A stretch of DNA of 64,000 bases from an uncultured Parasphingorhabdus sp. Its GTDB lineage: Bacteria; Pseudomonadota; Alphaproteobacteria; Sphingomonadales; Sphingomonadaceae. Positions 2,854 to 58,199 of the stretch are shown here, in pieces. Both the position numbers and the translations under genes were made by a program. The stretch spans positions 10,860-74,859 of the forward strand of contig CATOTQ010000003.1 in NCBI GenBank assembly GCA_951813595.1, read 5' to 3'. The notes under the pieces were generated by a model that saw only the letters and a list, made by a program, of their open reading frames with translations, ran no database searches and was not told the DNA's origin. The number at the start of each line of letters is the position of its first letter. The stretch's first letter is position 1.

Positions 2854-3618
2854 TTAGGGGCCGACGGTCGCGCCACCATCGACCGCTATTGATTGCCCGA
2901 CCATGAAGCTTGAACGGTCGGAAGCAAGATAGAGGATCGCATCGGCAATTTCCGATGGTTTGCCAAAACGCGCGGCGGGAACCATCTGGAGAACTGCTTC
3001 CTTTTGTTCCGGGTTATTTTTAAAATGCGTATCGACCATCGCTGTTGCTACCGGCCCGGGGGCGACGGCATTAATGCGCACGCCATGCCCAATTGCCTCC
3101 AGCGCGACCGAGCGAGTGAGGCCGAGTACCGCATGCTTGCTTGCGACATAGAATTGCAGCCCCGCTGATCCGATGCCTTCTGCCATGGCGGAAGTGTTGA
3201 TGATCGCGCTTTTCTCCAGACCCTGCATATGCTTCAATTCATGCTTCATGCAAAGCCACAGGCTTTTGACATTGACGCCAAACACAAAGTCATAGGTTTC
3301 GACGGTTTGATCCACCAGCATAGTGGGAGCGTGTTCGACGCCGGCATTGTTCACCGCGACATCGATATCTCCCAGCTCTTCGATGACGGTGGCCACCATC
3401 GCTTCTACTTTGTCCTCCTGAGTAAGATCGCAGTCAATTTGCAGCGTCTTGATGCCCGGATCGGAGATCATTTTTCGGGTTTCTTCATTGCCGTTGGCAT
3501 TAATATCCACCAGTACGAGATTTGCCCCCTGTTCGGCAAAGGCAAGCGCAGTTGCCCGCCCAATACCCGAGCCAGCGCCAGTAACAATGACATTTTTTCC
3601 TCTAAACTCGTCGGTCAT
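2854..3618 (-). CDS. short-chain dehydrogenase/reductase (SDR)
   Basis: TGAGSGIGRA Rossmann motif, NNAG, and catalytic YVASKHAV (YxxxK). Confidence 0.9.
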   Translation of the reverse strand: MTDEFRGKNVIVTGAGSGIGRATALAFAEQGANLVLVDINANGNEETRKMISDPGIKTLQIDCDLTQEDKVEAMVATVIEELGDIDVAVNNAGVEHAPTMLVDQTVETYDFVFGVNVKSLWLCMKHELKHMQGLEKSAIINTSAMAEGIGSAGLQFYVASKHAVLGLTRSVALEAIGHGVRINAVAPGPVATAMVDTHFKNNPEQKEAVLQMVPAARFGKPSEIADAILYLASDRSSFMVGQSIAVDGGATVGP

Positions 3619-3637: not shown

Positions 3638-4852
3638 TCAAGTTCTTGCGACTGGATTAAAAGTCATCGGTAGCGTGGCATAGCCCCATACCGGACCATA
3701 GGGCCGCAGTTTTGCTTCTCCTGCAGGGCGCATTTTTTTCATGCGATCCAAAATAACGTCCATGCCCTCTTCCAAAATGGCCTTTGCCATGAACATGCCC
3801 GGGCAAATGTGATGTCCTTGGCCCCAGGCACAATGGTTCTTTTTCTCACGGTCGATATCAAATTTATCGGGGGTTTCGTTGGCAGCTGCATCTCGGCCCG
3901 CCACCGTAACTGGCATGAATAGCATCGTCTCTTTGGGGAAAGTAACATCGCGATATTCGATATCGATATTGGTCATGCGGTTTAAGATACCAATCGGATT
4001 TTGATAGCGCAGCGATTCTTCGATGAAGGGTTTGATTTTTGATCGATCCTTTTCAATTATGTCCAATTGCTCGGGAAAATCGAGCATTGCTTTCATCATT
4101 AGAATAAGGTGGTTTTTAGAAGTATCATAACCCCCGGCCAGAAGATGAACGATCAAAATCCGGATTTCTTCTTCGCTTAGCTGTGCATTGTCGTCACCCA
4201 GGTCAACGACTTGCTGTAACAGATCCTCCTTGCGATTTTCAGGCTGTCGTCGTTCTTCCACCAGGCTTTCAGCATAGATGAACATATTTTTTAGAGCGTC
4301 GTCCACCGCGGCCATATTTTCGGGCGTCGGAGCCGTAACCGATGCCATGCTTTCCAGCCAGGCTTCGAATTTTGGAATGTAGCTGGCATCGATCCCAAGC
4401 AGGCTGCACATGACGGTGATCGGATAATGGCGGGCGAAATCAGCAAAATCGCATTCGCCGCTGCTGGCATATGCATCAATCGCCGTGTGGATCGTTTCGC
4501 GCATCAACGGGCGGTGGATGTTCATCGCTTTGGGCCCAAGCGGCCGGTTGATAGCGTTGCGCATATTTTTGTGCTCTTCACCTTCCAGCGCCTGCATGAA
4601 ATGATCATTAAAGCGCGCGAAGGAGGAGCTCGGGTCGGCGCCGACCAATTTTGTGACATCGCGATTGGCTGTTCGGCAATCCTGACTCTTCAGGAAATAT
4701 TTCATCGATTCCAGATCCAGAAGCATATAGCCGTGATTATATTTCACGACCCAGTTTTCCTTGCGAAGCTCGCTTGTCAGAGCATGCGGATCATCCAGAT
4801 ACTCATTGGAGTAGACATCCACCTCGGGGAGCTCGAGTTCATCCAGTCTCAT
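3638..4852 (-). CDS. cytochrome P450 (family A, ~404 aa)
   Basis: I-helix LLAGGYDTSKN, ExxR EESLRY, Cys-loop HCAWGQGHHICPGMFMA. Trp sits at the normally Phe position. Confidence 0.9.
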   Translation of the reverse strand: MRLDELELPEVDVYSNEYLDDPHALTSELRKENWVVKYNHGYMLLDLESMKYFLKSQDCRTANRDVTKLVGADPSSSFARFNDHFMQALEGEEHKNMRNAINRPLGPKAMNIHRPLMRETIHTAIDAYASSGECDFADFARHYPITVMCSLLGIDASYIPKFEAWLESMASVTAPTPENMAAVDDALKNMFIYAESLVEERRQPENRKEDLLQQVVDLGDDNAQLSEEEIRILIVHLLAGGYDTSKNHLILMMKAMLDFPEQLDIIEKDRSKIKPFIEESLRYQNPIGILNRMTNIDIEYRDVTFPKETMLFMPVTVAGRDAAANETPDKFDIDREKKNHCAWGQGHHICPGMFMAKAILEEGMDVILDRMKKMRPAGEAKLRPYGPVWGYATLPMTFNPVART

Positions 4853-4890: not shown

Positions 4891-5859
4891 TCATCTTGCG
4901 CGAAGCATCACTCCGGTGCCCTCTTTATTGGCCCCGTTGATGATCACGCCCGGAATTTTGAGGCCCCCGCAGCAGTTAACGCCTCGCTCCAGGCAGCCAA
5001 TTCCCTGATATTCATTGGCGGAAAACTCCATGAGTCCCTCAAAGCCGATCCATTCAGAGTGACTCACAATCCCGCCGCCCAGAAAATTTCTGAATTGAAG
5101 GTCAAAGCGTTTGCCATCCTGCGTTTCAAGCCAGCCCTGCGCTTCGGTAAAGCTTACGCCGTCGACTTCCATGAGTGGTCTCAGCTCCCAGTCTTTAAGC
5201 GGCGTCAACTTTCCATTTTCAACGATAAAGCCGCATTTCATCAGCTGGCCAGGAAACATAGCTACGGATGTGGCGAAGAAAGAAAATTCCTCGCCGGTCG
5301 TGCCGTTGATCCAGTTGCTTGTCTGAATTTCGTGAGTGTCGCGCGGACCCCATGAATGGTCGCGATGTCCGACACCGGATATTTCGGCCGTCTTTTCGCC
5401 GATTTCAATCTTGCCTGTCACTGTTCCGGCCACTTCGAAATGAGCGGAAGATATATCGTCCATCATTCCGCCAAAAGCAGACAGGTCCATATAGGCTTCC
5501 AGTGGTGCGGCTTCGTAAAGATCGGTAAAGACGAGTTCTGCACGAAAATCATCCTGAGCAACCGAGCAGCTCCATCCGCCTTTCTCAATATGCTGGAGGG
5601 TTAACCCGTCCACACTATATTTACCGTCTTCGCGCATCCATGCCGCATAGGGAATGCTGTGGCTGGTGCGCCTGGTGTATCGACCATCATCGGCGATAAG
5701 GATGTTCCAGATATGCGCCGTTCCGGCATTGGGTTGATGCGCTATGCGATGAAGGCCGGAAAAGCCTGTGTCTTTGTCAGCCCACCAGAACCATTGCGAT
5801 TCATTCCAACTTTTTTCAGGTCCCGCCGCGAGGGGTTTGCGGACTTCGATTACGCTCAT
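4891..5859 (-). CDS. uncharacterised conserved protein, U-family paralog 1 (RDHSWG motif)
   Basis: Paralog of 15387, 18228 and 36304. Motifs WNESQWFWW and GHRDHSWGPRD. The ATG at 5859 with a GGAGAG RBS is preferred over the ORF-track start at 5907. It lies immediately upstream of a P450 in the same operon. Confidence 0.75.
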   Translation of the reverse strand: MSVIEVRKPLAAGPEKSWNESQWFWWADKDTGFSGLHRIAHQPNAGTAHIWNILIADDGRYTRRTSHSIPYAAWMREDGKYSVDGLTLQHIEKGGWSCSVAQDDFRAELVFTDLYEAAPLEAYMDLSAFGGMMDDISSAHFEVAGTVTGKIEIGEKTAEISGVGHRDHSWGPRDTHEIQTSNWINGTTGEEFSFFATSVAMFPGQLMKCGFIVENGKLTPLKDWELRPLMEVDGVSFTEAQGWLETQDGKRFDLQFRNFLGGGIVSHSEWIGFEGLMEFSANEYQGIGCLERGVNCCGGLKIPGVIINGANKEGTGVMLRAR

Positions 5860-6089
5860 TTTTCTCTCCGTGGCCGACGATCGAGCAATTAACATGCAGT
5901 TCGCCATAAACCCATTGGCTACCGACGGCCATGCAATCCGCCGATTCCAAACTTCACCAGAATTTCAAATTTATTAATATATCAGTCAATATAATAATAT
6001 TGTCAAGTTGGAGTTTGCGGTATTGGCAACCTTTCACTGTTCTTAGCTAAATGTGAGTATTTCCAGCCAGCTCAACAGCCGTTGCGAAG

Positions 6090-6740
6090 CTATTTGAGAG
6101 GCTTGATCAAATCCGCCGCAAATAGCCGCTCAAGGCTGCGCAATGCTTCAAAATGGTTTGAATTATTCGCCTCAATACTGTGCTGGGTTCCGCCAAATAC
6201 GACTAGGGACAAAACATTTTCGACGGCATGCCTGTCGTTGGCGTCAATTTCGCCCGTTGAAACTCCTATGTCGGTGATCCCTTGATAAATTTTCAGCCAA
6301 TCTTTGTCCAGATTTGGATCCTTCAGTTCATCGTTTCGCCGCATTTCGTTGCGCACAACAGCGTTGAATTTAGCGTAGCTCGGATGCTCGATCAGAAGAG
6401 TTTGAGAGGCATCGAAAAAATACTGCATAGCTTCCAGAAACGTCGCGCATTCAAGCGATGGCAGTATGTGTTCCTTGATTCTTTTTTGCGTAGATCGATG
6501 AGCCGATCGAAACAGGTCCTGCTTGTTTTCAAAATAATGATAGATCGTGCCAGTGGTTAGTCGTGCACGTTCCGCGATCAATTTGTTCGACGTTTCCTTG
6601 AAACCAAACTCGCCGAAGCAATAGCGAGCGGCATCCTTGATCTTTTTCTTGGTCTTCTCGCTGTCGCCGGCCACAGGACGGCCTGCGCCACGTTTACGTA
6701 CTACGGGTTTGGTCGCCGCCTTGCTCGCGCTCTCTGCCAA
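6090..6740 (-). CDS. TetR-family transcriptional regulator
   Basis: N-terminal HTH: IKDAARYCFGEFGFKETSNKLIAERARLTTGTIYHYFENKQDLF. Confidence 0.9.
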   Translation of the reverse strand: MAESASKAATKPVVRKRGAGRPVAGDSEKTKKKIKDAARYCFGEFGFKETSNKLIAERARLTTGTIYHYFENKQDLFRSAHRSTQKRIKEHILPSLECATFLEAMQYFFDASQTLLIEHPSYAKFNAVVRNEMRRNDELKDPNLDKDWLKIYQGITDIGVSTGEIDANDRHAVENVLSLVVFGGTQHSIEANNSNHFEALRSLERLFAADLIKPLK

Positions 6741-6775: not shown

Positions 6776-6921
6776 ATTGATATTTCCTGTTCGCATATGC
6801 CTCTCTGCAAAGCAAGGCTATGAGTACAACAGAACCCCAGCTAAAATTTTGATACCACCACCAAATCATAATTGACTGACCAGTTAAAAAAAGATAGATG
6901 AACGGTATTAGGAGGATTTCT

Positions 6922-7902: not shown

Positions 7903-7914
7903 GGTGACGGTAAG

Positions 7915-8940: not shown

Positions 8941-8986
8941 TCAACACTCTGGAGAGTAATGAAGGATTGAAGCGAGGAATGAACTG

Positions 8987-10402: not shown

Positions 10403-10436
10403 TCATTCTGATCGCAGTGCATAAGGAGCAAGATTA

Positions 10437-10673
10437 ATGAACGGAACGCCGATTACCATTGGTGATGATTTATGGGATGGCGATGATGAAGGCGTCGTCA
10501 ACACATGGCTCTACGCCGATGGCGCAAACATCAAAGAAGGTGATGTGATCGCTGAAATCATGGTCGAGAAAGTTGAGATGGAGATTGAGGCTCCTGCATC
10601 CGGAACTCTCAAGATTGTGGCCGAGGCCGAAGCGGTGATCGCCAAGGGTTCGGTTATCGGCCATATTGAATAG
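10437..10673 (+). CDS. stand-alone lipoyl-attachment domain protein (E2 N-terminal domain as a separate gene)
   Basis: 78 aa. GDVIAEIMVEKVEMEIEAPASGTLKIV matches the lipoyl/biotinyl hammerhead pattern (E.DK..ME.EAP..G.L). Confidence 0.75.
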   Translation: MNGTPITIGDDLWDGDDEGVVNTWLYADGANIKEGDVIAEIMVEKVEMEIEAPASGTLKIVAEAEAVIAKGSVIGHIE

Positions 10674-10687
10674 CGCGGGCCTTTGCC

Positions 10688-14142: not shown

Positions 14143-15354
14143 ATGACCAAATTGGCAGAAATGGAAATGCCGTATCTCGATGCGCTCTCTCCAGAGTTTT
14201 TGCAGGATCCGCACAGTCATTACGCGAAGGCGCTGGAGGAGTCGTGGATCGCCCGTTTTGACAATGGCGGCTACATGTTGCTCGACTATCAATCCATGAA
14301 GGATTTCCTTGGCAAGGAAGATTTGGCCGTTTCGCCATTCAAGTATTTTATCGAGCAATGGGGTGCGGAAGATTCGTCCTGGGCCAAATTCCAGATGGAT
14401 CACCCCAACTCATTGAGCGGAAAGGATCACATGCGCCTCAAGACGCTGGTCGCGCCGGCATTTACCAAGCGCCAGGCGGATCAGTTCCGGCCTTTGATGC
14501 GTGAGCGGTTTGAGGCGTTGATCGATGAAGTCGTTGATCAAGGGAAATGTGATTTTGCACGGGTCGCTTGTCAATATCCCATCACGGTTGTCAGCATCAT
14601 GCTGGGTGTGCCTTTGGATGATATACCGAAGTTAGAACCATGGCTACTTGCTCTTGTTGAAGGGCAGGGCCAGGCGGCAGAAAAGCTCGGCATGCTGAAC
14701 GAAGCTGTCGAAGGCCTGCTCGAATTTATTCGTCCCGTCATTGCCGATCGCCGCGCCGGCGAGAACAAGGATGATCTGCTTCAGGCGATGATCGACGCGA
14801 CAGATGAAGGAGATCGGCTAACCGACGAGGAGTTGCATCACTTCGTAATCGGCCTGCTCTCCGGCGGGTATGATACCACTATGAACCAGTTGATTCATAC
14901 TACGCAGCGGATGTGCGAAAACCCGGTCGAGTATCAAAAGCTATTGGATAATCCTGAAGAAAGAAAATACGCCTTTATCGAAGAATCGTTGCGCCTTAAA
15001 TGCATGTTCGGCACCACTGCTCGGGCAACAACAGAGGAAGTGGAGTATCGCGGTGTCACAATTCCCAAAAATACCCTGCTCACAATACCTCTGACATTTT
15101 CTGGTCAGGATCCCTCGCAAAATAAATGTCCGGCGGAATTCAATCCTGACCGTGAAACCTCGGTCCATTTGGCTTGGGGACACGGCATTCATTTCTGTCC
15201 GGGTAAACAGGTCGCAATGGCGCTTCTAGAAGAAGCCGTTCCGGTGGTTGCCCAGCGCCTGCGTAATCCGCGCCTGGTCGGAAAACGCGAATATGTAGGG
15301 CCGTTTGGTCCATGGGCTTTGCGGTCAATGCCGATCGAATGGGACCTTGACTGA
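14143..15354 (+). CDS. cytochrome P450 (family A, 403 aa)
   Basis: LLSGGYDTTMN, EESLRL, HLAWGHGIHFCPGKQVA (Trp at the Phe position). Confidence 0.9.
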   Translation: MTKLAEMEMPYLDALSPEFLQDPHSHYAKALEESWIARFDNGGYMLLDYQSMKDFLGKEDLAVSPFKYFIEQWGAEDSSWAKFQMDHPNSLSGKDHMRLKTLVAPAFTKRQADQFRPLMRERFEALIDEVVDQGKCDFARVACQYPITVVSIMLGVPLDDIPKLEPWLLALVEGQGQAAEKLGMLNEAVEGLLEFIRPVIADRRAGENKDDLLQAMIDATDEGDRLTDEELHHFVIGLLSGGYDTTMNQLIHTTQRMCENPVEYQKLLDNPEERKYAFIEESLRLKCMFGTTARATTEEVEYRGVTIPKNTLLTIPLTFSGQDPSQNKCPAEFNPDRETSVHLAWGHGIHFCPGKQVAMALLEEAVPVVAQRLRNPRLVGKREYVGPFGPWALRSMPIEWDLD

Positions 15355-15386: not shown

Positions 15387-16394
15387 ATGACAAACTTCGC
15401 ACCAGAAGGTTTCGATCCTGTCGCTGACATGAATCATCAGAGACCCGATAACACACCCGGTTGGACGGAAAGCTATGCGTTCTGGGCTTATTGGGAGGGT
15501 CGCTATCTATATATGCATTATCAGCGCCACCCAGAGCAGAGCAGCATGTGGCGCGGGCTTGCAGTAGTAAGTGGTGAAGATGGCAGCATCGTTGCCGCGC
15601 ACAGTTTTGGCCGCGAATATTCGCCCTTTGGGCCTGGTTTTGAGCAAATTCACGCCATTTGTGAACGTCCTTTTGAATCCTACAGGGTTGAAGTCGATAC
15701 AATCGGTCAGGTTAGCGATCGTAAAACTGTACGGCAGAACTTTTTGCCGAGCTTGGGCAACGATCTCACCCCGCTTAAGCTGGAACTGCTATTCACTTCG
15801 GTTTCGGAAACATATTCTCCTATCAGAGGTGAGGCAGCGGGCGCCAAGTCGGTGGCGAAGTGGACACATTACACGCCCTGTAAGGTCCATGGCTATGTCA
15901 CAATCGGTGATGAGCGGGTCTATATTGATACCTTGGGATTCCGCGATCATTCATCCGGCGTAAGGTCATTCGAAAAAATGGGCACCGGCTATATGCATAC
16001 GGGTATTTTCCCCAGCGGCCGCAGCTATATGGCGCTTGGCATTCGCAGCCAAGACGATGATGGCAATATGCAATTTGCCTCCATGGGCGGTCTGACAATT
16101 GACGGGAAAGTCTACTACGCCAACAATATCGAGGTTCACGATAACACAATCTGTATCCCTGAGCCTGGTATGGAGCTCGGCCAGCTCAAATTTGAAACTG
16201 ATGCGGGCGAGGCTGTGATCAATCTTAATGTCACAGGCCAGGGCTTTCCACTGACCAATTTGCCGCCATGTTACGAAGCGGTGGGAATGCGACATCAGAA
16301 TGGCGATCTGGTCTATCATGATTGGCGACTGGACATTGAATGGGATGGCGAAAAAGGTATCGGCGGATGGGAGACCTGTGTCCGCTTGGACTAG
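15387..16394 (+). CDS. uncharacterised conserved protein, U-family paralog 2
   Basis: GWTESYAFWAYWEGRYLYMHYQRHPE, GFRDHSSGVRS, RLDIEWDGEKGIGGWE. Close paralog of 36304..37341. Confidence 0.8.
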   Translation: MTNFAPEGFDPVADMNHQRPDNTPGWTESYAFWAYWEGRYLYMHYQRHPEQSSMWRGLAVVSGEDGSIVAAHSFGREYSPFGPGFEQIHAICERPFESYRVEVDTIGQVSDRKTVRQNFLPSLGNDLTPLKLELLFTSVSETYSPIRGEAAGAKSVAKWTHYTPCKVHGYVTIGDERVYIDTLGFRDHSSGVRSFEKMGTGYMHTGIFPSGRSYMALGIRSQDDDGNMQFASMGGLTIDGKVYYANNIEVHDNTICIPEPGMELGQLKFETDAGEAVINLNVTGQGFPLTNLPPCYEAVGMRHQNGDLVYHDWRLDIEWDGEKGIGGWETCVRLD

Positions 16395-16459: not shown

Positions 16460-17146
16460 GTGGCCAATGGCCAAATCATCATCGTGAATGGCACTTCGGG
16501 TGCAGGCAAAACCACGACCATCACCAAATTCGCCGAGCGGGCGGACGAAGCTTATATGATGTTCGGCATCGATCAGCTGATGGGGCAGCTTCTGCCAGTG
16601 AAATTTTCGGGTTTCGGTGCCCGTGCGACTGAAGGTATGCATTTTGTCCCGAACGACCCGAATGATCCCGACAGTCCTCTACACGCCGAATTTGGTGACG
16701 TAGCGCAAAAGGCGCTCTCGGCCTTTCATGACATGATCGTCGCAGCATCAAGAGCCGGGCAAAATGTGATTGCTGACCACATCATGTTTCTCGAACCTCC
16801 TGTCTTGCAGGACTGCATCTGGCGATTGAAAGATGTTCCGGTGCTCTATGTTGCCGTAAAGCCGCCCCGCGAAATACCGATTGCCCGTCAAGCGACCCGT
16901 GAGGTCGATTTACCTGAGCAATATGCCGAAGAGCTTGGCGAGGATGCGCGCAAGGAAATCGCGAGAAGCATGGAGCGGATGGCCGGTTGGTTCTATGACG
17001 CAGCATATGAAAATGACTGTTATGATCTGGTCATTGATTCAGACAAATATAGCCCCGATGAGGTTTGTGAACAAATCGAGCAGCGCCTTGCAGAAGGCCC
17101 AGGTACAGCCTTTCAAACATTGCGCGATCAGTACCCGAAGGCATAG
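16460..17146 (+). CDS. P-loop kinase, chloramphenicol-phosphotransferase-like (CPT) family
   Basis: GTG start. IIIVNGTSGAGKTTTITKFAE Walker A at the extreme N-terminus; ~228 aa, a CPT-like layout. Confidence 0.6.
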   Translation: MANGQIIIVNGTSGAGKTTTITKFAERADEAYMMFGIDQLMGQLLPVKFSGFGARATEGMHFVPNDPNDPDSPLHAEFGDVAQKALSAFHDMIVAASRAGQNVIADHIMFLEPPVLQDCIWRLKDVPVLYVAVKPPREIPIARQATREVDLPEQYAEELGEDARKEIARSMERMAGWFYDAAYENDCYDLVIDSDKYSPDEVCEQIEQRLAEGPGTAFQTLRDQYPKA

Positions 17147-17160: not shown

Positions 17161-18258
17161 ATGGCTGACGACACGAAACTGGATGCTGCCTTCGAATCTC
17201 AGACGATGGCGCTGAAGCCAGACTTCAAAGAGATCACCCCAGACAGCATCGCTGCGCTGCTGAAAGATCACTATGGCGATGGCAGCCAGATCGAGTTGAC
17301 CGATGTGCAGGGCGGCAGCGAAATGTCTGGCATGTCGAGCGGCATTGTCATCTTCGATGCGAAGATTGGCGGCGAGGCAGCAGAGTTCGTTCTTCGTTAT
17401 GCGCCGCTCAACAATCCGGGACGGATCTTTGCCGAATATAATATCGAAGGTCAGTATCACCTGCACGGAGTTCTCAACGAAGCGGGGCTTCCTGTGCCTA
17501 GATCGGTGTGCTGCGATGCAGCGGGCGAAATTCTCCCGCTTCCCGGCTTCATCATGAATCGGGTTGAAGGACGAGCTCCTGACAATCCCGCTTACACGAG
17601 CGGAATTTTCGCCGAGGCCACCCCAGAACAGCGCGATTCCTACCGAGATGATACGTTGAAAGCGCTGGACCAATTACACAATCTCGATTGGCAAAAGCTG
17701 GGATTGGAGCGCTTTTGCAGCCTAGCCGATGAGGGGAAGACCCTGATCGAGCGCCATCTCAACTGGTTCTGGAAAACCGCACAATGGTCAGGGCTCGACC
17801 CCCAATCTCTCTCGCGGATTGAGCGGCTCAAGCAATGGCTTATCGCCAATGATCCGAACTATCACCGCGACGATATGACGATGACGCATGGCGATTCCAA
17901 CCTTGCGAATTACATGTTTAATGATGGCAAGTTGGTAGCAATGCTTGATTGGGAGATCGCAGCAATCGCCCAGCCTGCATTGGATGTGCTCGGGCAGTGC
18001 GATTTTATCGACTATTGCCGCAGCATCTCTCCTCCCGAAGTTCAGCAAATCATTCCCAGCCGCGAATCCTGGATCGCGCGCTACGAAGAAATTTCGGGCA
18101 AACGCCTTAGGGATATGGAGTATTTTGAGAGATTGCGCGGATATACCGGTCTTGTGATCATGACATCAATTCTGCGTTCGATCCCGAAAGAGCATCAGGA
18201 GACCTATTCGACTGTCCTCGAACCGCTTTGGGCGCATGCGGATGCGGTTACCACTTGA
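17161..18258 (+). CDS. aminoglycoside-phosphotransferase-fold (APH/ACAD10-LvaA-like) small-molecule kinase
   Basis: Catalytic loop MTHGDSNLANYMF followed by LDWEIAAIAQP (the HGD..N ... DWE pattern). Confidence 0.8.
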   Translation: MADDTKLDAAFESQTMALKPDFKEITPDSIAALLKDHYGDGSQIELTDVQGGSEMSGMSSGIVIFDAKIGGEAAEFVLRYAPLNNPGRIFAEYNIEGQYHLHGVLNEAGLPVPRSVCCDAAGEILPLPGFIMNRVEGRAPDNPAYTSGIFAEATPEQRDSYRDDTLKALDQLHNLDWQKLGLERFCSLADEGKTLIERHLNWFWKTAQWSGLDPQSLSRIERLKQWLIANDPNYHRDDMTMTHGDSNLANYMFNDGKLVAMLDWEIAAIAQPALDVLGQCDFIDYCRSISPPEVQQIIPSRESWIARYEEISGKRLRDMEYFERLRGYTGLVIMTSILRSIPKEHQETYSTVLEPLWAHADAVTT

Positions 18259-19283
18259 ACTTTGGAGAATGCACTTTGACTTATGACGAAAGCTGGAATT
18301 GCCCCCACCAGCCTGGCGAAGACATTAGCTGGCAGGAAAGTGACTGCTACTGGTTTTTTGATAATGAAGCCAGGGTGGGCGGATATCACCGTATAGGCCA
18401 GACGCCCAATAAAGAAGGCGGTGCTGGTCAGATTATGTCCTTCTTCTTTAAGGAAGGCGGGCAATATTTCCGTCAGGTAACCGAAATTCCTGCTGACCAG
18501 TGCAGTCGTAGCGAAACCGGCCAGATTGTTGGACCGCATGCAGTGAAGAGCCTGGGCGATGACTGCATGCATTACAGTTTCTCCGACCCGGATTGTGAAG
18601 TTGACCTTCAATTTTGTGAACAATTTTACACGCCCCGCAATTGGATGAAGGAGGAGAGCGAAGATCTGGAGGCGATAGAAGAAGGCTTTAATTCCGATGG
18701 CCATCTGGAGGTGGCCGGGCGCGTGAAAGGCCGGGTACGTATTGGCGATCACGAATATGAAATCAACGCTCTGGCGCAACGTGACCGATCCTGGGGAAAT
18801 CGTGACTGGTCAACCGCGCGGCAGGGCAGGCAGATTACCGGCACTATCGGCCACAAATTGTCCTGGACCGCTGTTGTAGGCCAGCTGGAACAACGCAGCG
18901 TTGTTTTCAAGGTCGGGTTCGTGGCGCGTAATGGCGAGACAACCGATATCAAAGATATCAAGGTTCTGGCTTCGATTGACTATGATGGTCTTTCGGTTGG
19001 AGCAATGAAGGTTCGGCTGGAACTGGAAGATGGTAGCCATGAAGATTTGACAGGCAATTCCATGCAAGGCTTCTTGTCCTTTTGGCTGTCAGAAACCTCC
19101 TCTATGGTCTGTTCGCACAATTTGATTGAAGCGGAGCATAAAGACGGTGTTGGAATGTCAAATTTTGACTGCACAATCCGGCCCCGCAAAGGCGACTATA
19201 TCCCGACCGAGGCGGATGTTTCCCTAACCCGTATTGCGGAGGGGCTTAATGATGCTGCAGACTATTCGACGCTGCGATGGTAG
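18228..19283 (+). CDS. uncharacterised conserved protein, U-family paralog 3
   Basis: SWQESDCYWFFD, GHLEVAGRVKGRVRIG, AQRDRSWGNRDW. The true start is probably TTG 18276 (GGAGAA RBS) rather than 18228, which overlaps the kinase gene. Confidence 0.75.
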   Translation: MGACGCGYHLNFGECTLTYDESWNCPHQPGEDISWQESDCYWFFDNEARVGGYHRIGQTPNKEGGAGQIMSFFFKEGGQYFRQVTEIPADQCSRSETGQIVGPHAVKSLGDDCMHYSFSDPDCEVDLQFCEQFYTPRNWMKEESEDLEAIEEGFNSDGHLEVAGRVKGRVRIGDHEYEINALAQRDRSWGNRDWSTARQGRQITGTIGHKLSWTAVVGQLEQRSVVFKVGFVARNGETTDIKDIKVLASIDYDGLSVGAMKVRLELEDGSHEDLTGNSMQGFLSFWLSETSSMVCSHNLIEAEHKDGVGMSNFDCTIRPRKGDYIPTEADVSLTRIAEGLNDAADYSTLRW

Positions 19284-19328: not shown

Positions 19329-20543
19329 ATGCAAAACATCAATGAAATAGAAATTCCTGAACTGAATATTCTCAGTCGCGATTTTTCGGACGATATATTT
19401 ACCCACTATGAAGATGCGGTAAAAAAGCACTGGCTGGCGCGATCTCCGGTTGGTTACATGGTTCTGGGCTTTCAGGAAATGAAAGACATGCTGGCCATGG
19501 ATGACATTCTTGTGCCGGGAAACAAGGAAACAACCAAGTTGCTCGGCGCTGAAGGAACAAGTTTCGGCGAATTCAACGACAACTTCCTGCTTGCGCTGAG
19601 CGGCGAGGATCATGCCCGTTTACGCGGGCTGGCGGCGTCAACCTTCACGCCCAAAAGTGCCAACAACAGCCGTCCCATGATGCGCGAGACATTCGAGAGC
19701 CAACTCGATCAGTGGCTCCCAAAGGGCAAATTTGACTTTGCCGAATTTGTGGCCGCCTATCCCATCTCGGTAATGTGTAACCTTATCGGTGCAAAGTCTG
19801 AAGATGTGCCGCGATTTATCGATTTGCTGGAGACCATAAATACCAATTTCAACGACATGCTCGAAAATATGCCACGGATATGCGAGGCTATAGATTCCCT
19901 GATGGGATATTTTGGCGAGCTTATTTCAGCCAGACGCGAAATGGATGATCCAGATCGTGAAAAAGATTTGCTGGATCGATTGCTGGAAGCTCATGAAGGC
20001 GGTGACCGATTGTCGGACCAAGAACTCAACAACCTGCTCGGGGTAATCTACCTGGCGGGTTATGACACGTCCAAAAACCTGCTCACCCTGATTATGAACC
20101 TTCTGCTTGATAATCCGGACTTGTGGGCGAAATTGGAAAGTGATCCCGGTTATGCGAGTGATATTGTTGATGAGGCGCTGCGCTATTCGACCGTGGTTAC
20201 GGTGGTAAGGCTCGTCAAGGAGGAGTTCACCTATAAGGGCGTCACCTTCCCTGCCGGTACAAGGGTCCTGCTTCCAACAACCTTTGCCGGCCGGGATGAG
20301 GGGGTTTTCAAGGACCCGAAAATATTTGATCCAGAACGAGTTCCCGAAGAGAAGGTTTTTCCCTTTGGCCGGGGCAAGCATATTTGCATAGGCATGTTTA
20401 TCGCAAGGGCGCAAATTGAGGAAGCACTGCCGATTTTGGTAAAACGGATGAAAAATCCAAGACGTGATGGCGATATTGAGTGGCGCGATTTCATGCCGAT
20501 TACAGGTTTGAAACACCTACCAATCGCTTTCGACGCTGCTTAA
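19329..20543 (+). CDS. cytochrome P450 (family A, 404 aa)
   Basis: YLAGYDTSKN, DEALRY, FPFGRGKHICIGMFIA. Confidence 0.9.
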   Translation: MQNINEIEIPELNILSRDFSDDIFTHYEDAVKKHWLARSPVGYMVLGFQEMKDMLAMDDILVPGNKETTKLLGAEGTSFGEFNDNFLLALSGEDHARLRGLAASTFTPKSANNSRPMMRETFESQLDQWLPKGKFDFAEFVAAYPISVMCNLIGAKSEDVPRFIDLLETINTNFNDMLENMPRICEAIDSLMGYFGELISARREMDDPDREKDLLDRLLEAHEGGDRLSDQELNNLLGVIYLAGYDTSKNLLTLIMNLLLDNPDLWAKLESDPGYASDIVDEALRYSTVVTVVRLVKEEFTYKGVTFPAGTRVLLPTTFAGRDEGVFKDPKIFDPERVPEEKVFPFGRGKHICIGMFIARAQIEEALPILVKRMKNPRRDGDIEWRDFMPITGLKHLPIAFDAA

Positions 20544-20555: not shown

Positions 20556-21338
20556 TTGCCGATGCCAAAACTCGAAGGGAAAGTTGCCATTATAACCGGT
20601 GCTAGCGCCGGCATAGGTTTGGGTGTCGCCAAGCGTTTTGCCAAGGAAGGTGCTGTCGTTGCCATGTGCGCGCGCACCCCGGAAACGTTGGAAAAAGCTG
20701 CAGATGAGGTGCGGGCCGTCGGCGGCAAGGTAATCCATAAGACTTGCGATGTGACTTCTTATGATGAGATCGATCCTTTTCTGGAGCTTGTGCTGCGCGA
20801 GGCGGGTACGATTGATATTTTGGTCAACAATGCTGCGTATATGCCAACCGAGCATAATATGCTCGAGGGGTTGGACGAGAGTGAATATCTGTCTGGCCTG
20901 GAAGGCGCAATCCACTCAACCTACCGTATGATGCAGCGCGTTTTTCCTGTCATGAAAGAGAAGGGGCGGGGTAAAATCATCAATTTCACCTCTCTGGGCG
21001 GCATAAGAGGTGTGCAGGGTACGGGCGGATACGCCGCAGGCAAAATGGCGATCATTGGTATTTCCCGCGTTGCCGCCAATGAGTGGGGGAAATACGGCAT
21101 CAACGTGAATTGCGTCGCGCCAATGTCGATGACGACTGGCTGGTCCGAGCTTATGAAAACACTTCCCGAAGGAAGCGATCCTTGGGAAGCCGTCGGCACC
21201 CGAGGGAATGCCCTGGGATATGTTGGCGATCCGGAAAAACATATTGCACCGCCCGTAGCTTTCTTGGCTAGCGACGATGCCGACTATATCACCGGCCATG
21301 TCATGCCGCTTGATGGCGGTTTGGTAGATTTGGAATAG
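20556..21338 (+). CDS. SDR oxidoreductase
   Basis: ITGASAGIGLG, NNAA, YAAGKMA. Confidence 0.9.
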   Translation: MPMPKLEGKVAIITGASAGIGLGVAKRFAKEGAVVAMCARTPETLEKAADEVRAVGGKVIHKTCDVTSYDEIDPFLELVLREAGTIDILVNNAAYMPTEHNMLEGLDESEYLSGLEGAIHSTYRMMQRVFPVMKEKGRGKIINFTSLGGIRGVQGTGGYAAGKMAIIGISRVAANEWGKYGINVNCVAPMSMTTGWSELMKTLPEGSDPWEAVGTRGNALGYVGDPEKHIAPPVAFLASDDADYITGHVMPLDGGLVDLE

Positions 21339-22733: not shown

Positions 22734-22943
22734 TTATTTTTGAATAATGTCTTCGTCTAGCGGATTGCCCATTACATGTACGGAGCCACTGTCTATCCGC
22801 AGGTCGGTCCCGGTGATGAAGCTTGCCCGATTGGATATCAGGAAATCTACCGCTGCCGCAACGTCATTGGGGCTGCCCCAACGGCCCAAGGGAATGCTGT
22901 CGACAAACGCGGGTGCGTTAGGGTTATTTTGCCAATCTCTCAC
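22734..22943 (-). pseudogene. SDR C-terminal stump (last ~60 codons only)
   Basis: [48 protein letters not shown] aligns with the C-terminus of intact SDRs in the window (e.g. ...[35 protein letters not shown]). There is no Rossmann or catalytic part. A stop lies 6 codons upstream in frame. It abuts and overlaps the stop of the Mo-enzyme gene. Confidence 0.75.
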
Positions 22944-25117: not shown

Positions 25118-25309
25118 TCTCTCTCCGGCGCGCATCGCGCTTGACGGGAAGGCGGTCTTGCCACTCAGATACCCGATCGCCCCAATTATCGACTGGTTGA
25201 TATATTATTGTCAAGCTGCTATCATAATTAGGAATTTGCGGAGGCTTCAAGAGGTCTGTAGCCTGCATTGTCGGGGGATTTTTGCAAGTCCGCAAGAGAG
25301 GAGAAAACG

Positions 25310-34522: not shown

Positions 34523-35629
34523 CTATGCCGACATCGTTTCAGCCATCATCGCAATTGGAGGCGCTTGCTCGTTAACGAATGTCGCCCATTCTTCATCCGG
34601 TAAGTCAGAACGCATTGTCATGAACCGCGCGTACAATATCCCGCATTGCCAAGCGGCATAGATACGATAAAAGCGCAACTTGGCCATGTCAATGTCGCGC
34701 CCCAGTGCCTTGCTGTAAATCTCGATCATTTCATCATATGAGGGCCATCCGGGCAATGAAGGTGTTTCGCCCATTGCTTCGGTGCTACGCAGAAACTGAA
34801 GATCAAAGGTGAGCCAGAAACCCAGATCGGTCTCAGGCTCTCCGCAGCTGACCAGATCCCAGTCGATAATGGCATTACATTTGTCAAGTTGAAACAACAT
34901 GTTCCCCGGCCGTGCATCACCCCATGATACGACGAGGTCGGACTGTTGCGGTTTATTGTCTTCAAGCCACTGGCGTGTTTCTTTTACCAAATCGAGCGGC
35001 TCATCTCGCCAACCCACGGCGGTAAATCGATCCCAACGGGCGATATCCCAGTCTAATTCGCTCTGGCCCGGAGCCGCGCGCAATAGAAAATCAGCACCAA
35101 GCTGGTCTATCGTTTTGCTATGCAGTTTGGCCAGCGCTTCAAGGCCCGACACACAAACGGCGCGCTGCTGTTCTTCAGAGGCATCCTTTACCCAGCCGCC
35201 CGCATAAAAGGGCGGTCGATCTGGCGTTGGTTCGCCCGGCACAAAACCCAATATATAGAAAGGTGATCCGGCAACAGATGGATCGGCCTCATATCCATAT
35301 GTCGGCGCCACAGGCGCGTGTCCCGTGGTATGCAGCAATTCCTGAATGCGATACTCCGCCTCGAAATCGTGATCGGGGAAGTAGATAAGCTTGGTCGGTT
35401 TACGCTTCAGCAGATATTTCTGCTCGCCGGCTTCAGGCGTAGACACTGCGATGATGAAGGATTCGCCAGCAAATCCGTTTGCTTCACTCGAAGTTGGCTC
35501 GACGGATTGCAATGTGGCGGTGCCATTGATTTGCAAATTGGTTCCAACCCATTGAGACAACGAATCGAAATACCTATCCAAATCCCTTGTTTGTGGTTTC
35601 TCGCCTAAAGATTGCTGGGTATCTACCAT
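34523..35629 (-). CDS. APH-fold phosphotransferase (small-molecule kinase), second copy
   Basis: VVSWGDARPGNMLF...AIIDWDLVSCGEPETDLGFW (catalytic-loop D..N and DWD pattern). Confidence 0.75.
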   Translation of the reverse strand: MVDTQQSLGEKPQTRDLDRYFDSLSQWVGTNLQINGTATLQSVEPTSSEANGFAGESFIIAVSTPEAGEQKYLLKRKPTKLIYFPDHDFEAEYRIQELLHTTGHAPVAPTYGYEADPSVAGSPFYILGFVPGEPTPDRPPFYAGGWVKDASEEQQRAVCVSGLEALAKLHSKTIDQLGADFLLRAAPGQSELDWDIARWDRFTAVGWRDEPLDLVKETRQWLEDNKPQQSDLVVSWGDARPGNMLFQLDKCNAIIDWDLVSCGEPETDLGFWLTFDLQFLRSTEAMGETPSLPGWPSYDEMIEIYSKALGRDIDMAKLRFYRIYAAWQCGILYARFMTMRSDLPDEEWATFVNEQAPPIAMMAETMSA

Positions 35630-35759
35630 CTACAGCGCCCATCCTTCTTAAAATTGTCTCCGCCGGCTTGCGGCTTCTGGTCTTGATTTTGATTTCCTTA
35701 TATCATAATCTATCACCCAATCAATTCAATATTCTTTGCTTAGCCTGAAGGAGGCAGAA

Positions 35760-36251
35760 ATGGCCAACGACCAAGTACGCGCTGCAGACCGCTTTGCGAT
35801 TCAGGATGTTTTGCACCAATACGCCCGCGCGACGGACAGCAAAGATCTGAACGCCTATATGGCCTGCTTTCATGAGGATGCGACCTTTCAGATTGAGCCC
35901 GGTCCGCCCGTGCCGGTGAAGGATTTTGCTGGGGGTTTTGAAACCAGCTGGAAGACATATGTTGTGACCGCGCACCACCTGAGCAATCACCTAGTAACTT
36001 TCGATGGAGACAGTGCGGAAAGCGAAATTTATGTTAACGCCTATCACCTGATCGCAGCCGATGCTCCGGCAGATGATCCGCTATTTCCAGGTAAGGGAGA
36101 GGAGTATGCGGTCTGGATCGGCGGTCGCTATTCTGACCACCTGCTTAACGGCGAAGATGGTTGGAAAATCCAGGCTCGACGCCTCGAATTTCTCTGGAGC
36201 ATGCCGGTCGATACCTCGAACCTGCCGTCAATGTTTTTTCCTAACGTCTAG
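35760..36251 (+). CDS. SnoaL_4-type NTF2-fold protein
   Basis: RFAIQDVLHQYARATDSKDLNAYMACFHEDATF. GAAGGAGG RBS before ATG 35760. Confidence 0.7.
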   Translation: MANDQVRAADRFAIQDVLHQYARATDSKDLNAYMACFHEDATFQIEPGPPVPVKDFAGGFETSWKTYVVTAHHLSNHLVTFDGDSAESEIYVNAYHLIAADAPADDPLFPGKGEEYAVWIGGRYSDHLLNGEDGWKIQARRLEFLWSMPVDTSNLPSMFFPNV

Positions 36252-36303: not shown

Positions 36304-37341
36304 TCAGACTTTGATCGAGCGGCTGGGATTTGGAATACAAGGCTCCCAGCCGCCAACGCCTTTTTCACCATCCCATTCGATATCGAGACGCCATTCATAG
36401 TAATGCAGGTCCTGATCGCTGCCATCCGGAAGACCAATTGCCTGATAGTTTGGTGGGAGCAGCGCCAGCGGGACGCCTTGGCCGGTTGTCTGCATGGAAA
36501 TCTCCGCTCGGCCATGCTCGCTTTCTAAAACGAATGTTCCAAGGTCACTATTGGGTTTCGGCGCTGAATATGTCCCCTCAGGCTCCTGTATAAGAGTTGC
36601 CTTCTTGAGCTCTCCATCGACCGTTACGCCGCCAATATTGACCGATTGAAATGATCCATCTTCATTGTGGGTTCCTACGCCAACAGACATGAAGCTGCGT
36701 CCGCTGGGGAATAGGCCCGTGAGCATATAGCCTTTGCCCATTGCTGAAAAAGAACGGCCTCCGGTGGAATGATCGCGCCATCCAGGGACATTATCGAGGT
36801 TGAACGATTTGTTGCCGATCTTGATTATCCCGGAGACGTCGCAAGGCGTGAAATGGGTCCATTTGGCGTTCGAATGGGTGTTGTCATCACTTTTGGGCAT
36901 GAACGACATCGGTGCATAGGTTTGCGAAACTGATTGGAATTTCAAATCCGCCATCAGTGACGTGGATCGTTCATCTATACTGTGTATGGATTGCGTTTTG
37001 AGCTTAGGCGTGTTCGAGACCTGTGCGACCGCATCTATGTTGACCTGAAATGTCTCAAAGGGCACTTCACAAACACCATGGCATTGTTGATAGCCGGGGC
37101 CGGATTTGGAGATTTGCCGACCGAAATTATGCGCCACAAAAACGGTCCCATCATCGCGCATGACCGCAGCATATCCCCTCCACATTTCTACGTCTTCGGG
37201 ATGACGTTGAAAATGCATGTAGAGATAATGCTCTTCGAAATAGGCCCAAATGGCATAGCTTTCAGACCAACCCGGCGTATCGCCGGGGTCTTCATGACAC
37301 ATGTCACTTTCGGGTAAAAATCCGTCAGGTATGAATTGCAT
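36304..37341 (-). CDS. uncharacterised conserved protein, U-family paralog 4
   Basis: GWSESYAIWAYFEEHYLYMHFQRHPE, GWRDHSTGGRS, RLDIEWDGEKGVGGWE. Confidence 0.8.
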   Translation of the reverse strand: MQFIPDGFLPESDMCHEDPGDTPGWSESYAIWAYFEEHYLYMHFQRHPEDVEMWRGYAAVMRDDGTVFVAHNFGRQISKSGPGYQQCHGVCEVPFETFQVNIDAVAQVSNTPKLKTQSIHSIDERSTSLMADLKFQSVSQTYAPMSFMPKSDDNTHSNAKWTHFTPCDVSGIIKIGNKSFNLDNVPGWRDHSTGGRSFSAMGKGYMLTGLFPSGRSFMSVGVGTHNEDGSFQSVNIGGVTVDGELKKATLIQEPEGTYSAPKPNSDLGTFVLESEHGRAEISMQTTGQGVPLALLPPNYQAIGLPDGSDQDLHYYEWRLDIEWDGEKGVGGWEPCIPNPSRSIKV

Positions 37342-58144: not shown

Positions 58145-58199
58145 GCGGCCGCCTGAATGACCAACGCCGTGCCCTGAAGAGATGGAAGGAGAAACTTGT

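What the first reader, a model, noticed from the sequence alone, without database searches (positions are those of the whole stretch)
4891..5907. Four paralogs of an unassigned ~330-aa protein family with an invariant-looking RD(H/R)SxGxR centre
The paralogs are at 4891-5859 (-), 15387-16394 (+), 18276-19283 (+) and 36304-37341 (-). They fall into two subgroups. U2/U4 are close (GWTESYAFWAYWEGRYLYMHYQRHPE vs GWSESYAIWAYFEEHYLYMHFQRHPE; RLDIEWDGEKGIGGWE vs RLDIEWDGEKGVGGWE), while U1/U3 are more divergent. Three landmarks are shared by all four. The first is an N-terminal W-x-ES-x-x-(F/Y/I)-W. The second is a His-containing strand followed by (V/I)-x-IG. About 10 residues later comes G/Q-x-RD-(H/R)-S-x-G-x-R (GHRDHSWGPRD, GFRDHSSGVRS, AQRDRSWGNRD, GWRDHSTGGRS). 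I saw no cofactor motif, signal peptide or TM segment, and I cannot place the family from memory. The W..W N-terminus plus a DHxWG-like centre loosely recalls AttH/CrtC (carotenoid 1,2-hydratase) double beta-barrel proteins, which would fit terpenoid chemistry, but this is a guess. Three of the four are directly adjacent to a family-A P450.
Basis: seen in the sequence. Interest (0 to 1): 0.7.

Follow-up and report, generated by a model that had tools for sequence, protein, structure and literature searches.

The report
Phosphate-eliminating lyase paralogs beside P450s
The four look-alike proteins are real members of a large "unknown function" family (Pfam DUF7065/DUF7064). They are distant relatives of the recently solved 25-phosphosteroid lyase, so they most likely remove a phosphate that neighbouring kinases put on alcohols made by neighbouring P450s, turning C-H into C=C during lipid breakdown.

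Summary
Four intact ORFs (U1 4891-5859-, U2 15387-16394+, U3 18276-19283+, U4 36304-37341-) are paralogs in two subgroups, and all quoted motifs are present. U1 and U3 pass Pfam's thresholds for DUF7065+DUF7064. U2/U4 form a divergent branch that no Pfam model captures.

AlphaFold models (pLDDT 83-84.5) are two-barrel AttH-like folds. For both, the best PDB match is 25-phosphosteroid lyase (25-PSL, 9fzn/9g4c). A U1/U3 profile finds only 25-PSL in the whole PDB, and profile-profile comparison gives 96.5-97.5% probability. The 9g4c product complex carries D->N at that Asp. The motif is nearly invariant across 148 family representatives.

Context supports a kinase link:
- A conserved seven-gene cluster reads P450-U2-CPT kinase-APH kinase-U3-P450-SDR.
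- APH kinases sit directly next to about 15% of family genes in two phyla.
- Natural APH-DUF7065/7064 fusion proteins exist.
- M. tuberculosis Rv3168 (APH)-Rv3169 is a described operon.

Best reading (about 0.55): these are phosphoester C-O lyases working in hydroxylate, phosphorylate, eliminate modules. The substrate is unknown. U1 and some U2-type genes have no adjacent kinase.

The parts
4891..5859 (-). U1, 322 aa, DUF7065+DUF7064 protein (putative phosphoester C-O lyase). The motif is GHRDHSWGPRD.
   Evidence: ORF. Pfam DUF7065 7e-28 and DUF7064 1.6e-13, both above the gathering score. AF2 pLDDT 84.5. Foldseek top hit is 25-PSL, E 4.7e-12, TM 0.66.
3638..4852 (-). P450 directly downstream of U1 on the same strand, 38-nt gap.
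   Evidence: Pfam p450. A P450 beside the U1 homolog is also seen.
2854..3618 (-). SDR downstream of the U1-P450 pair.
   Evidence: Pfam adh_short_C2 5.7e-64.
6090..6740 (-). TetR-family regulator upstream of U1.
   Evidence: Pfam TetR_N. The arrangement recalls TetR Rv3167c, which controls Rv3168-Rv3169.
14143..15354 (+). P450, first gene of the seven-gene cluster.
   Evidence: Pfam p450. The cluster is conserved in L086/L087.
15387..16394 (+). U2, 335 aa, divergent branch of the family. The motif is GFRDHSSGVRS.
   Evidence: ORF. Weak DUF7065 hit, 19.8 bits, below the cutoff. hhalign to the U1/U3 profile 96.1%. AF2 pLDDT 83. Foldseek top hit is 25-PSL, E 7e-10.
16460..17146 (+). P-loop small-molecule kinase (chloramphenicol-phosphotransferase-like), directly after U2.
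   Evidence: Pfam CPT 4.8e-24. Same position in L086/L087. A CPT gene lies 5.6 kb from a U2-type gene in L090.
17161..18258 (+). APH-family kinase, 17 nt upstream of U3.
   Evidence: Pfam APH 1e-18. Best PDB hits are Rv3168 (3ats, 3e-24) and 9fsg (4e-21), then the ACAD11 kinase domain.
18276..19283 (+). U3, 335 aa, DUF7065+DUF7064 protein. The motif AQRDRSWGNRD contains the same RDRSWG as 25-PSL.
   Evidence: ORF. Pfam 1.4e-22 and 3e-13. Alignments.
19329..20543 (+). P450 directly after U3.
   Evidence: Pfam p450 3.3e-36. PDB relatives are 3p3l/3p3o at 1e-59 and the reconstructed ancestral CYP125 at 1e-39.
20556..21338 (+). SDR, last gene of the seven-gene cluster.
   Evidence: Pfam adh_short. 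Conserved in L086/L087.
34523..35629 (-). Second APH-family kinase, 0.7 kb from U4 on the same strand, with a plus-strand SnoaL gene between them.
   Evidence: Pfam APH 6.9e-23. Best PDB hits are 9fsg at 1.3e-29 and Rv3168 at 2e-25. It is 34-36% identical to APHs adjacent to family genes in other Proteobacteria.
35736..36251 (+). SnoaL_4 protein between APH2 and U4.
   Evidence: Pfam SnoaL_4 6.7e-26.
36304..37341 (-). U4, 345 aa, U2-type paralog. The motif is GWRDHSTGGRS.
   Evidence: ORF. 48% identical to U2. No Pfam hit.

Best explanation
U1-U4 are soluble, cofactor-free enzymes with a two-barrel AttH-like fold. They belong to the DUF7065/DUF7064 family and are distant homologs of 25-phosphosteroid lyase (25-PSL).

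Proposed mechanism, all steps inferred:
1. A P450 hydroxylates a hydrophobic substrate, probably isoprenoid- or steroid-like.
2. A dedicated small-molecule kinase phosphorylates the new alcohol. The kinase is APH-type for U3 and U4, and possibly the CPT-type P-loop kinase for U2.
3. The U protein binds the alkyl phosphate inside its barrel. The two arginines of the R-D-(H/R)-S-(W)-G-x-R motif hold the phosphate and the motif Asp removes a neighbouring proton. Phosphate leaves and an alkene forms.

The net result is an ATP-driven dehydration. Together with the P450 step it amounts to a formal desaturation, which sets up the next oxidation by the second P450 and the SDR.

Shown here: paralogy, fold, homology to 25-PSL, conservation of the motif, and the linkage to kinases and P450s.
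Inferred only: the chemistry, the residue roles and the substrate.
For: Fold: the nearest solved structure for both models is 25-PSL (E 4.7e-12, TM 0.66 for U1; E 7e-10, TM 0.60 for U2), ahead of AttH, the fungal Diels-Alderases and kievitone hydratase.

Sequence: the U1/U3 profile hits only 25-PSL in 177,635 PDB sequences, E 0.0037. hhalign against the 25-PSL family gives 97.5% (E 7.8e-12) and 96.5% (E 8.8e-10).

Motif: the family motif aligns to 25-PSL's LGSRDRSWGVR. The product complex 9g4c carries D->N exactly there. The motif is near-invariant in 148 representatives.

Kinase linkage:
- The cluster P450-U2-CPT-APH-U3-P450-SDR has 12-65-nt gaps and is conserved in another organism at about 65% identity.
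- An APH is directly adjacent to 10 of 68 family genes, in both gene orders and in two phyla, and to 5 of 34 25-PSL-like genes.
- Natural APH/EcKL-DUF7065-DUF7064 fusions exist, one of them fungal.
- The window's APH kinases are closest to Rv3168 and 9fsg. Rv3168-Rv3169 is a TetR-repressed operon, and U1-U3 hit NCBIfam's Rv3169 family.
- 9fsg is most similar to APHs that sit next to 25-PSL-like genes.

Precedent for APH kinase plus phosphate elimination: 25-HSK/25-PSL and ACAD10/11 (abstract of PMC11342911).
Against: - U1 has no adjacent kinase, and its 70%-identical homolog has none within 10 kb.
- Two of the U2-type loci examined pair with a P450 but have no adjacent kinase: none within 8 kb in L004, and only a CPT-type kinase gene 5.6 kb away in L090.
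- About 65 Acidimicrobiia family members sit among housekeeping genes with no kinase within 10 kb.
- Identity to 25-PSL is only 11-14%.
- Only the N-terminal barrel aligns by sequence.
- U2/U4 do not align directly to 25-PSL beyond the motif, and they replace the motif Trp with Ser or Thr.
- S. denitrificans uses Mo hydroxylases anaerobically. Here the partners are P450s, and the window's Mo enzymes are FdhF-like rather than S25DH-like.
- The residue roles rest on a depositor's mutation and on analogy. No 25-PSL paper was found.
Confidence: 0.55

Rival explanations
1. The proteins are ATP-independent hydratases or dehydratases of the CrtC / kievitone-hydratase type. They would act directly on P450 products or on alkenes, adding or removing water at an isoprenoid-like carbon with no phosphate intermediate.
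For: The fold is shared with AttH (2ich) and kievitone hydratase (7a0t). The conserved partner of U1-type and U2-type genes is a P450, often without an adjacent kinase. Many family members have no kinase nearby.
Against: No Pfam CrtC-family hit appears at E<=1. The sequence profile finds 25-PSL and none of the hydratases. The two-arginine motif shared with a phosphate lyase is near-invariant. Kinase fusions and adjacency are far above background.
Confidence: 0.2
2. The proteins carry out another carbocation or pericyclic reaction on P450-made intermediates, such as cyclisation, isomerisation or [4+2] cycloaddition, like the fungal Fsa2/Phm7/CghA enzymes that share the fold.
For: Foldseek E values of 1e-9 to 1e-11 to Fsa2, Phm7 and CghA. 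The barrels are cofactor-free.
Against: These matches rank below 25-PSL. The window has no PKS, NRPS or terpene-synthase genes and looks catabolic: CoA ligase, enoyl-CoA hydratases, CoA transferase, BVMO, TonB receptor. This reading does not explain the kinases.
Confidence: 0.1
3. The proteins are non-catalytic lipid-binding or shuttle proteins that hand hydrophobic substrates to the adjacent P450s.
For: They have a lipocalin-like barrel architecture and tight P450 adjacency.
Against: A near-invariant polar R-D-H-S-W-G-x-R motif and a conserved acidic residue point to catalysis. They are homologous to an enzyme. The window already has several SRPBCC and SnoaL binding-type proteins.
Confidence: 0.07

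Closest known systems
25-phosphosteroid lyase (25-PSL) of anaerobic cholesterol side-chain degradation. PDB 9fzn, 9g2i and 9g4c, released Jan 2026. The pathway is described in PMC8449060 and PMC11061730.
   Same: Two-barrel AttH-like fold, and the best structural match for both models. The N-terminal barrel is detectably homologous (hhalign 96.5-97.5%). The shared motifs are an acidic residue in strand 1, (Q/Y)-P-N, and R-D-(R/H)-S-W-G-x-R. Both associate with APH-family alcohol kinases, and 25-PSL-like genes elsewhere have adjacent APH genes.
   Different: Identity is only 11-14%. The C-terminal barrel is not alignable by sequence. 25-PSL itself falls below Pfam's DUF7065 threshold. In S. denitrificans the kinase is unlinked and the hydroxylases are Mo enzymes working without O2. 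Here there are four paralogs, P450 partners, two kinase types and an apparently aerobic catabolic island.
M. tuberculosis Rv3168-Rv3169 operon. Rv3168 is the APH-like kinase of PDB 3ats/3att. Rv3169 gives its name to NCBIfam NF053593. The operon is repressed by TetR Rv3167c.
   Same: An APH kinase followed by a homolog of the U proteins in one operon with a TetR regulator nearby. The window's APH kinases have Rv3168 as their best or second-best PDB hit.
   Different: The NCBIfam scores of 19-34 bits are far below the 150-bit cutoff, so U1-U4 are not Rv3169 orthologs. The function of Rv3168/Rv3169 is itself unknown. The papers read here mention no P450 with that operon.
AttH / CrtC carotenoid 1,2-hydratase / kievitone hydratase superfamily (PDB 2ich, 7a0t).
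   Same: Same double beta-barrel fold. The chemistry at isoprenoid-type tertiary carbons is plausibly related (the chemistry is from general knowledge).
   Different: No sequence-profile match. Those enzymes add or remove water directly and have no kinase partner.
ACAD10/ACAD11 and the bacterial LvaA/LvaC logic: an APH kinase followed by phosphate elimination.
   Same: An APH-family kinase activates an alcohol so that phosphate can be eliminated to give an alkene. The ACAD11 kinase domain is a PDB hit of the window's kinases (PMC11342911 abstract).
   Different: There the eliminating enzyme is an acyl-CoA-dehydrogenase-fold domain acting on CoA thioesters, not an AttH-fold barrel.

Membership tests
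Pfam DUF7065 (PF23213) + DUF7064 (PF23212) | Both domain models matched above Pfam's gathering score (U1, U3). | tested here: met
   U1 scores 98.4 and 51.5 bits. U3 scores 81.1 and 50.6 bits. The cutoffs are 27 and 24.7.
Pfam DUF7065 (PF23213) + DUF7064 (PF23212) | Both domain models matched above Pfam's gathering score (U2, U4). | tested here: not met
   U2 has only DUF7065 at 19.8 bits. U4 has no hit. They are tied to the family by hhalign at 96.1% and by fold.
25-phosphosteroid lyase family | Two-barrel fold with 25-PSL as the nearest solved structure. | tested here: met
   U1 gives E 4.7e-12 and TM 0.66. U2 gives E 7.3e-10 and TM 0.58-0.60. 25-PSL ranks first in both searches.
25-phosphosteroid lyase family | Detectable sequence homology to 25-PSL. 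| tested here: met
   For the U1/U3 group: the only PDB hit, E 0.0037, and hhalign 97.5% and 96.5%. For U2/U4 directly the result is weak, 9-18% probability. Only the N-terminal barrel aligns.
25-phosphosteroid lyase family | The R-D-R-S-W-G-V-R motif, including the Asp that is mutated to Asn in the 9g4c product complex. | tested here: met
   U1 has RDHSWGPR and U3 has RDRSWGNR. U2 has RDHSSGVR and U4 has RDHSTGGR, where the Trp is replaced.
25-phosphosteroid lyase family | A partner kinase that makes the phosphoester. | tested here: inconclusive
   An APH lies 17 nt upstream of U3. A CPT kinase lies 65 nt downstream of U2. An APH lies 0.7 kb from U4. U1 has none.
25-phosphosteroid lyase family | Close similarity (orthology) to 25-PSL and an Mo-hydroxylase (S25DH/S26DH) pathway context. 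| tested here: not met
   Identity is 11-14%. The 25-PSL clade proper is 53-91% identical to 25-PSL and is about 365 aa long. The window's Mo enzymes resemble FdhF or thiosulfate reductase.
25-phosphosteroid lyase family | Phosphate elimination from an alkyl phosphoester. | not testable with these tools
   This needs an enzyme assay.
CrtC / AttH hydratases | A sequence-profile match to the CrtC/AttH models. | tested here: not met
   No such Pfam hit at E<=1. AttH and kievitone hydratase are not found by profile search of the PDB. Only the fold is similar.
Fungal decalin Diels-Alderases (Fsa2/Phm7/CghA) | A PKS-NRPS biosynthetic context. | tested here: not met
   No PKS or NRPS domains in any of the 57 neighbouring ORFs scanned in the six Pfam scans of the window. 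The fold match ranks below 25-PSL.
NCBIfam NF053593 Rv3169 family | A score above the curated cutoff of 150 bits. | tested here: not met
   Scores are 33.6, 19.3 and 30.6 bits, with no hit for U4. The proteins are related but not members.

The most novel reading that the evidence does not exclude
DUF7065/DUF7064 would be a widespread family of alkyl-phosphate C-O lyases, with at least 2,400 clusters at 50% identity. Together with dedicated APH- or CPT-type kinases and P450 hydroxylases they would form a modular hydroxylate, phosphorylate, eliminate cassette. That cassette would be an ATP-driven way to turn unactivated C-H into C=C in aerobic bacteria, with the kinase and lyase fused into one protein in some fungi. 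The ATP-dependent dehydration so far known only from anaerobic sterol degradation would then be a general catabolic strategy, and it would give Rv3168-Rv3169 of M. tuberculosis a testable function.
Probability: 0.4. Interest if true: 0.8.

Novelty: new variant of a known kind. Interest (0 to 1): 0.66.

Why it matters
ATP-dependent dehydration of an alcohol by a kinase followed by a phosphate lyase has been described for sterols only in one anaerobic pathway. The lyase was still unidentified in the 2021 and 2024 papers read here and has only recently been solved.

Linking a roughly 2,400-cluster "domain of unknown function" family to that enzyme gives a concrete, testable function for thousands of unannotated genes. 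The link rests on fold, profile homology, a shared catalytic-looking motif, gene fusions and operon structure. The family includes the TetR-regulated Rv3168-Rv3169 operon of M. tuberculosis.

It also suggests that aerobes combine P450 hydroxylation with phosphorylation and elimination to desaturate lipids. That would be useful for biocatalysis and for understanding how sterols or terpenoids are degraded.

Tried and rejected
- **Single-sequence PDB search.** U1 against the PDB gave nothing meaningful. Only the profile search found 25-PSL.
- **Source contig.** The nearest relatives are Alphaproteobacteria, Pseudomonadales and Gammaproteobacteria MAGs at 45-50% identity.
- **Literature.** Searches for DUF7064/DUF7065 and for a 25-PSL paper found none. 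Residue roles in 25-PSL therefore could not be taken from a publication.
- **Full-length 25-PSL.** A homolog search with the 152-aa 25-PSL fragment returned only proteins of 266 aa or fewer, several of them frameshifted. Full-length relatives were obtained from a metagenome scan instead.
- **Identity of 9fsg.** I tried to show that PDB 9fsg is 25-HSK by searching for peptides in the paper's supplement. No peptides are listed there, so this stays unverified. It is supported only by 9fsg's similarity to APHs next to 25-PSL-like genes.
- **Mo oxidoreductases.** I considered that the window's two Mo enzymes might be S25DH/S26DH analogues. This was rejected because their closest structures are FdhF, thiosulfate reductase and acetylene hydratase.
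- **Universal kinase adjacency.** This was rejected. About 65 Acidimicrobiia loci have no APH within 10 kb and lie beside malate dehydrogenase, Fpg and succinate dehydrogenase genes.
- **Substrate from the P450.** P450 similarity does not identify a substrate. The best hits are 3p3l/3p3o, and the CYP125 ancestor scores only 1e-39.
Full report
**Observation**

The four ORFs are real: U1 4891-5859 (-), U2 15387-16394 (+), U3 18276-19283 (+) and U4 36304-37341 (-). The 5907 end given in the finding is an alternative upstream ATG. Public annotation of the same 417,895-bp contig gives 322, 335, 335 and 345 aa. All quoted peptides are present.

Identities are U1-U3 29%, U1-U2 16%, U1-U4 19% and U2-U4 48%. 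The two subgroups are truly homologous: hhalign gives 96.1% probability, E 2.8e-9, over 204 columns.

U1, U2 and U3 each sit 32-45 nt from a P450 gene on the same strand.

**Family**

U1 and U3 match Pfam DUF7065 (PF23213) and DUF7064 (PF23212) well above threshold. U2 matches DUF7065 only weakly, and U4 matches nothing. NCBIfam gives only weak hits to "Rv3169 family".

A profile of U1/U3 and their homologs, run against 1.84 billion representative proteins, finds 2,412 clusters at E<=1e-3 and 1,028 at E<=1e-10. So this is a large family without a function. No paper in the library mentions either DUF.

In 148 representatives the central motif reads R(144) D(144) H/R(119/24) S(132) W(141) G(145) x R(146). 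The N-terminal motif reads W(141/145) x E(132) S(141).

**Fold and nearest characterised relative**

The AlphaFold models are confident: U1 has pLDDT 84.5 and pTM 0.85, U2 has pLDDT 83 and pTM 0.85. Both are almost entirely beta, consistent with two barrels.

In both Foldseek searches of the PDB the top matches are the three entries of 25-phosphosteroid lyase (9g4c, 9fzn, 9g2i). U1 gives E 4.7e-12 and TM 0.66, and U2 gives E 7e-10 and TM about 0.6. After these come AttH NE1406 (2ich), the fungal Diels-Alderases Fsa2/Phm7/CghA, and kievitone hydratase.

At sequence level the U1/U3 profile hits only 25-PSL among 177,635 PDB sequences, E 0.0037. Profile-profile comparison with the 25-PSL family gives 97.5% (E 7.8e-12) with the fragment-based alignment and 96.5% (E 8.8e-10) with 64 full-length relatives. 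It covers about 160 columns of the N-terminal barrel only.

The alignment pairs the family motif with 25-PSL's LGSRDRSWGVR. The sequence of the product complex 9g4c (phosphate plus desmost-1,4-diene-3-one) differs from the wild type in the aligned region only by D->N at the motif Asp. I take this as indirect evidence that the depositors regard that Asp as catalytic. I found no publication to confirm it.

25-PSL itself scores below Pfam's DUF7065 cutoff. U2/U4 align directly to 25-PSL only at the motif.

**What 25-PSL does (from papers)**

In anaerobic cholesterol degradation by Sterolibacterium denitrificans, C25 is hydroxylated by a Mo enzyme. The tertiary alcohol is then phosphorylated by the roughly 40-kDa phosphotransferase-family kinase 25-HSK. 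Phosphate is eliminated to give the delta-24 alkene, which a second Mo enzyme hydroxylates at C26 (PMC8449060; PMC11061730). In 2021 the lyase gene was still unknown, and in 2024 the lyase was still described as putative.

**Context in the window**

Kinase genes are interleaved with the paralogs. The layout is P450 (14143-15354), U2, CPT-like P-loop kinase (16460-17146), APH kinase (17161-18258), U3, P450 (19329-20543), SDR (20556-21338). All are on the + strand with gaps of 12-65 nt.

This seven-gene cluster is conserved, gene for gene, in two metagenome contigs that carry a U2 homolog about 65% identical to U2.

A second APH kinase (34523-35629) lies 0.7 kb from U4. U1 has a P450, an SDR and a TetR regulator next to it but no kinase.

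The two APH kinases have as their best PDB hits Rv3168 (3ats/3att; identity confirmed through PMC3691515) and 9fsg, an "aminoglycoside phosphotransferase-like protein". The ACAD11 kinase domain follows. 9fsg is most similar to APHs that sit next to 25-PSL-like genes, at 32-39% identity. That fits 9fsg being a 25-HSK-type kinase, but I could not verify it.

**Context elsewhere**

- **Gene fusions.** Among ten unusually long family members, five carry an N-terminal APH/EcKL kinase domain fused to DUF7065+DUF7064. One of them is from the fungus Thyridium curvatum.
- **Adjacency.** In 79 genome loci, 10 of 68 family genes with enough flanking sequence have an APH directly adjacent. The order is APH then U in Proteobacteria (L006-L011) and U then APH in Actinomycetota (L037, L069, L079, L080). 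A distant member overlaps its APH/EcKL neighbour by 4 nt. Almost all APH genes found in these roughly 1.2 Mb are the adjacent ones.
- **25-PSL-like genes.** Five of 34 have an adjacent APH.
- **M. tuberculosis.** Rv3168-Rv3169 is described as an operon repressed by the divergent TetR Rv3167c (PMC5340868).
- **P450 association.** This recurs too. A P450 lies beside U1-type or U2-type genes. P450+APH+U triads occur in L007, L010, L037 and L080.

**Counter-evidence**

- The closest U1 homolog examined (70% identical) has no APH within 10 kb.
- Two of the U2-type loci examined have no adjacent kinase: none within 8 kb in L004, and only a CPT-type kinase gene 5.6 kb away in L090.
- About 65 Acidimicrobiia members sit among housekeeping genes.

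So part of the family may work without a dedicated kinase, or with an unlinked one. The kinase is also unlinked in S. denitrificans.

**Interpretation**

The best-supported reading is that these are C-O lyases that eliminate phosphate from kinase-made alkyl phosphoesters, here coupled to P450 hydroxylation. Each module would perform an ATP-driven dehydration, and with the P450 step a formal desaturation. The rest of the window looks like lipid, steroid or terpenoid catabolism:

- seven P450s and several SDRs
- a BVMO and a Rieske oxygenase
- a CoA ligase, a CoA transferase and enoyl-CoA hydratases
- two OYE-FAD reductases
- a TonB-dependent receptor
- SRPBCC and SnoaL proteins

. The substrate is unknown. 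The P450 next to U3 is not close to any steroid P450, and the Mo enzymes are FdhF-like.

The phosphate-binding role of the two motif arginines and the base role of the Asp are inferences. The rival readings are direct hydratase/dehydratase, another carbocation or pericyclic reaction, and passive lipid binding. They are less well supported, mainly because they do not explain the kinase fusions, the adjacency, or the specific sequence link to 25-PSL.

**Verdict**

These are not orthologs of 25-PSL: identity is 11-14%, they belong to a different clade, and their partners are different. They are best described as a new, P450-linked variant of the kinase plus phosphate-lyase theme, including a U2/U4 branch that current Pfam models miss.

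Noticed in passing
window 29980-31166 and 37467-38653: An exact (100% identical) 1,187-bp direct duplication, 7,487 bp apart. It carries two tandem SRPBCC (Polyketide_cyc2) genes plus their upstream region. One copy starts 126 nt beyond the start codon of U4. It could be a very recent duplication or an assembly artefact.
   Followed up: partly
window 22940-25135 (-) and 41724-43913 (-): Two molybdopterin oxidoreductases of about 730 aa with an N-terminal 4Fe-4S domain lie inside the P450-rich region. Their closest structures are FdhF, thiosulfate reductase and acetylene hydratase, not steroid C25 dehydrogenase. A similar 729-aa gene lies near the 70%-identical U1 homolog in L085, and SelA/SelB genes lie near the conserved cluster in L086.
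   Followed up: partly
window 3638-4852, 14143-15354, 19329-20543, 38674-39996, 43972-45339, 47089-48306, 56933-58144: There are seven cytochrome P450 genes in 64 kb. A ferredoxin-reductase-like gene lies at 62723-63502, and two OYE+FAD (BaiCD/FadH-like) reductases lie at 58182-60179 and 60718-62691. This is an unusually dense oxidative catabolic island.
   Followed up: partly
P0092, P0102, P0114, P0152, P0168 (family representatives, not in the window): These are natural fusions of an APH/EcKL kinase domain to DUF7065+DUF7064, 670-882 aa long. The three proteins of about 870 aa have roughly 200 N-terminal residues with no Pfam match. P0114 is from the fungus Thyridium curvatum (XP_030995376.1).
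   Followed up: partly
L012-L084 (Acidimicrobiia / Actinomycetota genome loci): A large clade of family members lies in conserved synteny with malate dehydrogenase, Fpg/Nei and succinate dehydrogenase genes. It has no kinase or P450 within 10 kb. Its role may differ from that of the kinase-linked clades.
   Followed up: no
window 6898-11368 and 52259-53008: E1 alpha and E1 beta genes of a 2-oxoacid dehydrogenase are followed by a Rieske ring-hydroxylating alpha subunit. After that comes a 226-aa ORF that holds only the E2 acyltransferase catalytic domain. A lipoate-protein ligase-like gene lies further on. The Rieske gene in the middle is an odd arrangement.
   Followed up: no
L088 8001-9100 and L089 8001-9123: The two 25-PSL-like genes I examined on long contigs are each split into two overlapping ORFs (251+125 aa and 224+165 aa), which suggests frameshifts. 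The homolog search with a 152-aa query listed only proteins of 266 aa or fewer, so it selected such truncated calls.
   Followed up: partly
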